Assembly (NCBI RefSeq): GCF_055900595.2
Contig: NZ_CM148325.1
Length of the DNA: 64,000 nt
Direction: 5' to 3' (one strand)
The notes under the pieces were generated by a model, which saw nothing but the letters and a program-made list of their open reading frames with translations, was not told the DNA's origin and searched no databases. Shown piece after piece: positions 32,037-32,075 of this stretch. A program made the position numbers and the translations under genes. The number at the start of each line of letters is the position of its first letter. The stretch's first letter is position 1.

Positions 32037-32075
32037 TGCGAATTATTTAATCATATTTATTGCATATAAATTCAC
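32037..32075 (+). promoter_or_regulatory. Putative tandem ARG boxes (ArgR operator) of artJ
   Basis: TGCGAATTATTTAATCA and TTGCATATAAATTCA, about 21 bp centre to centre, roughly 70 bp upstream of the artJ ATG. Confidence 0.55.

What the first reader, a model, noticed from the sequence alone, without database searches (positions are those of the whole stretch)
32037..32075. Tandem ARG-box-like operator upstream of artJ, and a weaker one upstream of artP (28874-28932)
TGCGAATTATTTAATCA and TTGCATATAAATTCA resemble paired ARG boxes at the canonical spacing, consistent with ArgR repression of arginine uptake genes. Called by eye only.
Basis: partly seen in the sequence, partly recalled or inferred. 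Interest (0 to 1): 0.2.

Follow-up and report, generated by a model that had tools for sequence, protein, structure and literature searches.

The report
Known ArgR operators at artJ, artP
These are the well-known binding sites where the arginine repressor ArgR switches off the arginine-uptake genes artJ and artPIQM in Escherichia; they are real and conserved, but already described and therefore ordinary.

Summary

**The sites.** I built a weight matrix from 16 classical K-12 ARG boxes, leaving out the art and his sites. The two best single boxes in the 64-kb window are 32059-32076 (20.3 bits, upstream of artJ) and 28914-28931 (17.4 bits, upstream of artP). The two best 18+3+18 tandem sites are:
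- artP, 28893-28931, 23.9 bits
- artJ, 32038-32076, 21.7 bits

The next best tandem scores 15.3. Shuffled windows give 0.005 tandems at or above 21.7.

**Comparison with K-12.** The artP operator is 39/39 identical to K-12. The artJ operator is 35/39 identical, and all four differences lie in the weak distal box. In K-12, ArgR binding to two 18-bp boxes with a 3-bp spacer overlapping the -35 of artJ and artP has been shown experimentally (Caldara 2007, as summarised in PMC6640053).

**Conservation.** Both operators are islands of conservation in Hafnia, Serratia, Buttiauxella, Pluralibacter and Enterobacter.

- The box frames are 32038-32055 and 32059-32076.
- The artP operator is 28893-28931, not 28874-28932.
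- By tandem score, the artP site is not weaker than the artJ site.

**Verdict.** Already known; low interest.

The parts
32038..32055 (+). artJ distal (promoter-far) ARG box, GCGAATTATTTAATCATA. It is weak, with a degenerate left half.
   Evidence: It scores 1.4 bits, in the top 0.6% of window positions. It sits 3 bp upstream of the strong box. Box positions 7, 8, 11, 12, 15 and 16 are invariant across 11 artJ loci from 6+ genera. It is 14/18 identical to the K-12 box.
32059..32076 (+). artJ proximal ARG box, ATTGCATATAAATTCACT. It contains the -35 hexamer TTGCAT at 32060-32065.
   Evidence: It is the best ARG-box score in the window, 20.3 bits. It is 18/18 identical to K-12. The exact 18-mer lies upstream of artJ orthologues in Hafnia, Serratia oryzae, Buttiauxella, Pluralibacter and Enterobacter sp. 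Ag1.
32080..32088 (+). Inferred artJ extended -10 element: TGG followed by CATTGT, with a 17-nt spacer from TTGCAT.
   Evidence: The motif TGGCA(T/A)nnT is conserved across genera while its flanks are not. It has the same geometry as the artP promoter. No transcription-start data were available here, so this is an inference.
32146..32877 (+). artJ coding sequence (arginine-specific periplasmic binding protein), the regulated gene.
   Evidence: Annotation of a 99.9% identical RefSeq record and the ORF list.
31994..32033 (+). Intrinsic terminator of artPIQM (13-bp stem plus T-run), ending 4 nt before the artJ distal box.
   Evidence: Terminator scan. A hairpin plus T-run occupies the same position in the other genera.
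28893..28910 (+). artP distal ARG box, TTTAACTTTTAAAGCAGA.
   Evidence: It scores 6.5 bits. It is identical to K-12. Mean column identity across genera is 0.81, against 0.50 for the upstream flank.
28914..28931 (+). artP proximal ARG box, ATTGCATAATTATTCTGT. It contains the -35 hexamer TTGCAT at 28915-28920.
   Evidence: It scores 17.4 bits, the second-best box in the window. It is identical to K-12. 17 of its 18 columns are invariant in 8 sequences that were not selected on this site.
28938..28943 (+). Inferred artP -10 hexamer, TACTAT, with a 17-nt spacer. The transcription start is at about 28952 +/-2.
   Evidence: The start site was back-calculated from the primer coordinates (-195 to +26) and the footprint coordinates given in PMC6640053. 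With +1 = 28952, the two boxes span -59..-42 and -38..-21.
28854..28867 (+). Predicted Lrp site (-98..-85 in K-12 numbering). It ends in the invariant block TTGTGCTA (28860-28867). Lrp is the second, competing repressor of PartP.
   Evidence: Coordinates are from PMC6640053, mapped to the window. The block is invariant in 8 sequences from 5 genera.
28987..31855 (+). artPIQM operon: ATPase, second binding protein and two permeases. This is the regulated operon.
   Evidence: Annotation and the ORF list.

Best explanation
These are the two ArgR operators of the Escherichia art locus. Each is a pair of 18-bp imperfect-palindrome ARG boxes separated by 3 bp:
- artJ: 32038-32055 and 32059-32076
- artP: 28893-28910 and 28914-28931

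In each pair, the strong promoter-proximal box contains the -35 hexamer TTGCAT.

When arginine is plentiful, hexameric ArgR loaded with L-arginine binds both boxes on one face of the helix and bends the DNA. It occupies the -35 region, so RNA polymerase cannot bind (steric exclusion). This shuts down synthesis of the high-affinity arginine-binding protein ArtJ and of the ArtPIQM transporter. At artP, Lrp binds an overlapping upstream region and competes with ArgR.

Shown here: the sequence match, its statistical significance, its position relative to the genes, its identity to K-12, and its cross-genus conservation.

Taken from the K-12 literature: physical binding and the repression mechanism.

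Inferred: that the same holds in this strain, and the exact artJ -10 element and transcription start.
For: 1. A PWM built only from the argF, argI, carAB, argA, argR, argECBH, argD and argG boxes ranks the two sites first and second in the window, both as single boxes and as 3-bp-spaced tandems.
2. Shuffle controls give 0.005 expected tandems per window, and 1/2000 and 0/2000 in local shuffles.
3. The scores (21.7 and 23.9) fall inside the leave-one-out range of known operators, 19.9-38.6.
4. The artP operator is 39/39 identical to K-12 and the artJ operator is 35/39 identical.
5. [quoted passage not shown] The same geometry is seen here: TTGCAT at box positions 2-7 in both operators, with 17-nt spacers.
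6. Phylogenetic footprint for artJ: the exact proximal 18-mer lies upstream of artJ in 9 Enterobacterales species whose ArtJ is only 74-97% identical to the window's. A positive-scoring distal box sits 3 bp upstream in 8 of those 9. In the 18 chance hits elsewhere, the equivalent position averages -13 bits (Mann-Whitney p = 6e-6).
7. Phylogenetic footprint for artP: in five other-genus loci that were not selected on this site, the artP tandem is retained at 20.0-27.7 bits.
8. Comparative genomics places artPIQM in the core ArgR regulon of gammaproteobacteria and artJ among the taxon-specific members (PMC5343134).
9. argR is present in 5425 of 5426 complete E. coli genomes.
Against: - The artJ distal box is a poor match in this lineage: 1.4 bits here against 3.6 in K-12 and 6-12 in other genera. 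Its left half-site fits better one base out of frame.
- A simple sigma-70 consensus scan did not call either promoter, because TTGCAT matches TTGACA at only 3 of 6 positions. The promoter assignment therefore rests on the literature and on conservation.
- No binding or expression data exist for this strain.
- The primary paper (Caldara 2007) could not be read, so the exact published box boundaries were not compared base by base.
Confidence: 0.93

Rival explanations
1. The resemblance is chance. These are AT-rich promoter or UP-element sequences that look like ARG boxes and are not bound by ArgR.
For: ARG boxes are AT-rich and degenerate. Mid-scoring hits (8-14 bits) occur elsewhere in the window in AT-rich DNA, for example at 26042, 27353 and 51912. 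The artJ distal box scores only 1.4 bits.
Against: The two sites are the top two of about 64,000 positions. Both lie upstream of arginine transport genes with identical promoter geometry. Shuffles essentially never reach their scores. They are conserved islands across genera. Sequences identical to the whole artP operator and to the proximal box and spacer of the artJ operator (distal box 14/18) were footprinted with ArgR in K-12 (PMC6640053).
Confidence: 0.02
2. In this divergent lineage only the proximal artJ box is functional. The distal box has decayed: GCG replaces TTA at box positions 1-3, and there is a 1-bp indel just upstream. ArgR therefore binds weakly and artJ is less repressible than in K-12.
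For: The distal score falls from 3.6 bits in K-12 to 1.4 bits here. All three changes at the left end of the box fall in the left half-site.
Against: The K-12 distal box is itself weak yet is part of the experimentally defined operator. The positions invariant across genera (T7, A8, T11, A12, C15, A16) are all retained in the window. Known operators such as argR and argD also pair a strong box with one scoring about 5 bits.
Confidence: 0.06
3. At artP the conserved block is mainly an operator for another regulator, such as Lrp or AllR, and ArgR is secondary.
For: Lrp protects -165 to about -10 of the artP control region and represses it about three-fold. AllR was picked up by genomic SELEX (PMC6640053). 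The invariant TTGTGCTA block upstream lies in the Lrp site.
Against: The Lrp nucleation site (-86 to -112) lies upstream of the boxes. The boxes themselves match the ArgR matrix at 23.9 bits. ArgR and Lrp are reported as competing repressors, so the two explanations are complementary rather than exclusive. Lrp has no effect on PartJ.
Confidence: 0.03

Closest known systems
E. coli K-12 artJ operator (Caldara et al. 2007, J Mol Biol; summarised in PMC6640053)
   Same: Same gene and same position. The proximal box is 18/18 identical, the 3-bp spacer 3/3, and the -35 overlap is the same. Downstream sequence as far as the ATG is nearly identical.
   Different: The distal box differs at 4 of 18 positions (GCGAATTATTTAATCATA vs TTAAATTATTTAATCATG). 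There is also a 1-bp indel in the T-rich tract just upstream. The distal PWM score is 1.4 here against 3.6 in K-12.
E. coli K-12 artPIQM operator, with its overlapping Lrp sites (PMC6640053)
   Same: The 39-bp operator, the -10 element and the Lrp-site block are identical. The ybjP-artP intergenic region is 98% identical overall.
   Different: Nothing within the operator. There are four substitutions elsewhere in the intergenic region, including T to G in the upstream half-site-like AGTGAAT at 28873.
Classical arginine-biosynthesis operators (argF, argI, carAB P2, argA, argECBH, argD, argG, argR)
   Same: They share the 18+3+18 design, the consensus wNTGAATwwwwATTCANw, the overlap with promoter elements, and the pairing of one strong box with one weaker box.
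   Different: The art tandem scores (21.7 and 23.9) sit at the low end of the range, well below argF and argI (38). They are comparable to argR, argD and argA (20-28). The regulated genes encode transport, not biosynthesis.
hisJQMP ArgR operator of E. coli
   Same: It is also a tandem ARG-box operator in front of a basic-amino-acid ABC transporter (PMC6640053).
   Different: The hisJ boxes lie further upstream of the promoter, and repression there does not work by simple exclusion of RNA polymerase. The art boxes overlap the -35.

Membership tests
E. coli-type ArgR operator (tandem ARG boxes) | Two 18-bp imperfect palindromes that match the ARG-box consensus wNTGAATwwwwATTCANw. | tested here: met
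   PWM from 16 independent boxes. The proximal boxes score 20.3 and 17.4 bits, ranks 1 and 2 of 63,983 positions. The distal boxes score 1.4 and 6.5 bits, in the top 0.6% and 0.09%. The artJ distal box is marginal by score but is supported by conservation.
E. coli-type ArgR operator (tandem ARG boxes) | The boxes are separated by 3 bp (rarely 2), giving a 21-bp centre-to-centre distance on the same face of the helix. | tested here: met
   The best tandem at both loci uses a 3-bp spacer. Spacers of 2 or 4 bp score lower. The 3-bp spacing is kept in every orthologous locus examined.
E. coli-type ArgR operator (tandem ARG boxes) | The operator overlaps the promoter (-35 and/or -10) of the regulated gene. 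| tested here: met
   For artP, the start site derived from published coordinates puts the boxes at -59..-42 and -38..-21, with TTGCAT at -37..-32. For artJ, the geometry is identical and an extended -10 is conserved, but no start-site data were available, so that half is inferred.
E. coli-type ArgR operator (tandem ARG boxes) | The regulated genes belong to arginine metabolism or transport. | tested here: met
   The downstream genes are annotated artJ and artPIQM in a 99.9% identical record and in K-12.
E. coli-type ArgR operator (tandem ARG boxes) | Orthology with an experimentally footprinted operator. | tested here: met
   The loci are syntenic. artP is 39/39 and artJ is 35/39 identical to the K-12 operators. 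Binding in K-12 is reported in PMC6640053.
E. coli-type ArgR operator (tandem ARG boxes) | Arginine-dependent binding by hexameric ArgR, and repression in vivo in this organism. | not testable with these tools
   This needs EMSA or footprinting, reporter fusions or ChIP in this strain.
E. coli-type ArgR operator (tandem ARG boxes) | The cognate repressor gene argR is present in the genome. | tested here: inconclusive
   argR is not in the 64-kb window. It is present at >=95% identity in 5425 of 5426 complete E. coli genomes, which include the 9-11 genomes >=99% identical to the window. This specific genome could not be checked.

The most novel reading that the evidence does not exclude
The window comes from a lineage about 95-96% identical to K-12. 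In it, the left half of the artJ distal ARG box has been rewritten (GCG for TTA, plus a 1-bp indel upstream). This may retune ArgR cooperativity and so change how tightly the high-affinity arginine-binding protein is repressed. That would be natural operator-strength variation between Escherichia lineages.
Probability: 0.08. Interest if true: 0.2.

Novelty: already known. Interest (0 to 1): 0.07.

Why it matters
It adds little. The finding correctly annotates two textbook regulatory sites and shows that a by-eye call was accurate. ArgR control of arginine uptake through artJ and artPIQM has been characterised in K-12 since 2007, and comparative genomics had already predicted it across gammaproteobacteria. 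The modest added value is threefold:
- base-accurate operator coordinates for this divergent Escherichia lineage;
- evidence that the operators are under strong purifying selection out to Hafnia and Serratia;
- a small natural variant in the weak artJ distal box.

Tried and rejected
- **Primary paper.** Caldara 2007 is not held, and Cho 2015 has no supplement held. I therefore could not compare published box boundaries or ChIP-exo peaks directly. I used the summary in PMC6640053 and back-calculated the artP start site from its primers and footprint coordinates. The published figures (-195/+26, 222 bp) disagree with the 223-bp genomic span by 1-2 nt, so +1 is given as 28952 +/-2.
- **Promoter scan.** The generic sigma-70 scan did not call either promoter. 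I rejected it as uninformative rather than as evidence against, because TTGCAT is a poor TTGACA match.
28873-28890 (AGTGAATAATGCGCTTTG) has a perfect left half-site 20 bp upstream of the distal box. It scores <=1 bit as a box and is not conserved outside Escherichia. I rejected it as part of the operator.
- **Single ARG-like box across the artP ATG.** 28982-28999 scores 11.5 bits but has no tandem partner. Its right half is coding sequence, and the 5'UTR part is absent in other genera. It is probably chance.
- **Other ArgR targets in the window.** I looked upstream of potF (a predicted regulon member in some taxa) and dacC and found no tandem site.
- **Possible 5' hairpin in the artJ leader.** fold_alignment gave 3 pairs, -2.4 kcal/mol and no covariation. 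It is not supported.
- **Possible recombinant art region.** I suspected this because 5,407 E. coli records are only 90-95% identical to it. Sliding identity to K-12 is about 93-97% across the whole window, so the divergence is lineage-wide.

Full report
**Context**

The window carries the Escherichia art locus on the + strand:
- ybjP, 28248-28769
- artP, ATG at 28987
- artI, 29733
- artQ, 30471
- artM, 31187-31855
- artJ, 32146-32877
- rlmC on the minus strand

The gene names come from a RefSeq record 99.9% identical to the window and from K-12 MG1655.

**Checking the observation**

I confirmed that the 16 classical ARG boxes occur in them. I then built a symmetrised log-odds matrix that excludes the art and his sites. 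Leave-one-operator-out tandem scores for these known operators run from 19.9 (argD) to 38.6 (argI).

Scanning all 63,983 positions of the window gave these results:

| Site | Coordinates | Score (bits) |
|---|---|---|
| Best single box, artJ proximal (ATTGCATATAAATTCACT) | 32059-32076 | 20.3 |
| Second single box, artP proximal (ATTGCATAATTATTCTGT) | 28914-28931 | 17.4 |
| Third single box | 51912-51929 | 14.4 |
| Best tandem (3-bp spacer), artP | 28893-28931 | 23.9 (6.5 + 17.4) |
| Second tandem, artJ | 32038-32076 | 21.7 (1.4 + 20.3) |
| Next best tandem | 27353-27391 | 15.3 |

Two hundred dinucleotide-preserving shuffles of the window give on average 0.005 tandems >=21.7 and 0.12 single boxes >=17.4. 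Shuffling only the AT-rich control regions reaches the observed tandem score in 1/2000 (artJ) and 0/2000 (artP) trials.

**Anatomy**

In both operators the strong box is promoter-proximal and carries TTGCAT at box positions 2-7. Seventeen nucleotides downstream lies TACTAT at artP (28938-28943) and TGG-CATTGT at artJ (32080-32088).

For artP, I mapped the primer pair and the -195/+26, -96..-116 and -85..-98 coordinates from PMC6640053 onto the window. This places +1 at 28952 +/-2. The boxes then span about -59..-42 and -38..-21, and TTGCAT about -37..-32. [quoted passage not shown]

The artJ operator starts 4 nt after the T-run of a strong intrinsic terminator (31994-32033), which ends the artPIQM transcript.

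**Comparison with the characterised K-12 sites**

The artP operator is 39/39 identical to K-12, and the whole ybjP-artP intergenic region is 98% identical.

At artJ, the proximal box and the spacer are identical to K-12. The distal box differs at 4 of 18 positions: GCGAATTATTTAATCATA here against TTAAATTATTTAATCATG in K-12. There is also a 1-bp indel just upstream. The distal score is 1.4 bits here and 3.6 in K-12.

According to PMC6640053, Caldara et al. 2007 showed four things:
- ArgR blocks RNA polymerase binding at PartJ by steric exclusion.
- The two art operators have similar in-vitro affinity for ArgR.

The 2019 paper attributes that difference largely to competition from Lrp at artP. 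Lrp does not affect PartJ.

**Phylogenetic footprint**

One exact-match scan of 100,044 species genomes for the artJ proximal 18-mer returned 27 loci.

Nine of them are Enterobacterales: two further Escherichia, Pluralibacter, Enterobacter sp. Ag1, Buttiauxella, an unnamed Enterobacteriaceae genome, Serratia oryzae and two Hafnia. In all nine, the match lies 86-149 nt upstream of the start codon of an artJ orthologue whose protein is 74-97% identical to the window's.

The other 18 hits are scattered AT-rich chance matches with no art gene nearby. They serve as a control for the distal box. The 18 bp lying 3 bp upstream of the match score -30 to +0.9 (mean -13) in the chance hits. At the artJ loci the same position scores -1.0 to +12.2 (mean 6.6). 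The Mann-Whitney p is 6e-6, or 1e-4 when only one Escherichia is counted.

In the alignment of the artJ loci, distal-box positions 7, 8, 11, 12, 15 and 16 are invariant, as is the TGGCA of the extended -10. The surrounding sequence is randomised. The invariance of the proximal box is by ascertainment and does not count as evidence.

The artP promoters in five of these other-genus loci were not selected on their own sequence. All retain a 3-bp-spaced tandem scoring 20.0-27.7 bits at the same position. Mean column identity is 0.96 in the proximal box and 0.81 in the distal box, against 0.42-0.50 in the flanks.

Published comparative genomics agrees. It places artPIQM in the core ArgR regulon of gammaproteobacteria and artJ among the taxon-specific members (PMC5343134). 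The repressor gene is near-universal: argR is found in 5425 of 5426 complete E. coli genomes.

**Mechanism and status of each step**

- Shown here: sequence match, significance, spacing, position relative to the genes, identity to K-12, and purifying selection.
- Shown in the literature for K-12: arginine-dependent ArgR binding, DNA bending, exclusion of RNA polymerase at PartJ, and Lrp competition at PartP.
- Inferred: that the same operates in this strain, the artJ -10 and start site, and that the altered distal box still functions.

- The 18-bp frames are 32038-32055 and 32059-32076.
- The artP operator is 28893-28931.
- 'Weaker' is true only for the artP proximal box, not for the tandem.

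**Rivals**

- Chance AT-rich resemblance is excluded by rank, shuffles, conservation and published footprints.
- A decayed distal artJ box in this lineage is possible but unlikely, because all cross-genus invariant positions are retained.
- Lrp or AllR acting at artP complements ArgR rather than replacing it.

**Verdict**

The feature is already known, and interest is low.

Noticed in passing
whole window (1-25681 and 28240-46697 compared with K-12): The window is only about 95-96% identical to K-12 along its whole syntenic length. Only 9-11 of 5,426 complete RefSeq 'E. coli' genomes are >=99% identical to it. It comes from a divergent Escherichia lineage resembling a cryptic clade. The divergence is not specific to the art genes.
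   Followed up: partly
window 25682-28239: A 2.56-kb AT-rich insertion relative to K-12 lies between the ybjQ side and ybjP. It carries one 594-aa ORF on the minus strand (25831-27615), annotated hypothetical, with only sub-threshold pentapeptide-repeat Pfam hits. Several mid-scoring ARG-like PWM hits here look compositional.
   Followed up: partly
window 28860-28867: The block TTGTGCTA is invariant in the artP upstream regions of Escherichia, Pluralibacter, Enterobacter sp. Ag1, Serratia oryzae and Hafnia. It coincides with the 3' end of the predicted Lrp site (-98..-85) of K-12 artP, which suggests that Lrp control of artPIQM is also conserved across genera.
   Followed up: partly
window 28952-28962: The motif TCAATnGCTAT, at or just after the inferred artP transcription start, is nearly invariant across genera (column identity 0.88, against 0.42-0.60 in the flanks). 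Its function is unknown. It could be the initial transcribed sequence or another binding site.
   Followed up: no
window 28982-28999: A single ARG-like box, TGTCAATGAGTATTCAAT (11.5 bits, rank 6 in the window), spans the artP start codon. It has no tandem partner, and its right half is coding sequence. It is probably chance.
   Followed up: partly
window 31856-32033: The artM-artJ spacer holds REP/BIME-like palindromic repeats (recognised from memory, not tested). A strong intrinsic terminator follows at 31994-32033 and directly abuts the artJ operator. The other genera keep a hairpin plus T-run at the same place, but with different sequence.
   Followed up: partly
window 32096-32145: The artJ leader contains a short GC hairpin candidate (GCCG-CAGACA-CGGC) and a conserved GACAGACGGGAG block before the ATG. 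fold_alignment found only 3 pairs and no covariation.
   Followed up: partly
window 51912-52098: A cluster of single ARG-like boxes (14.4, 11.4 and 9.0 bits) lies around the gstB-dacC intergenic region and the start of dacC. None forms a tandem.
   Followed up: partly
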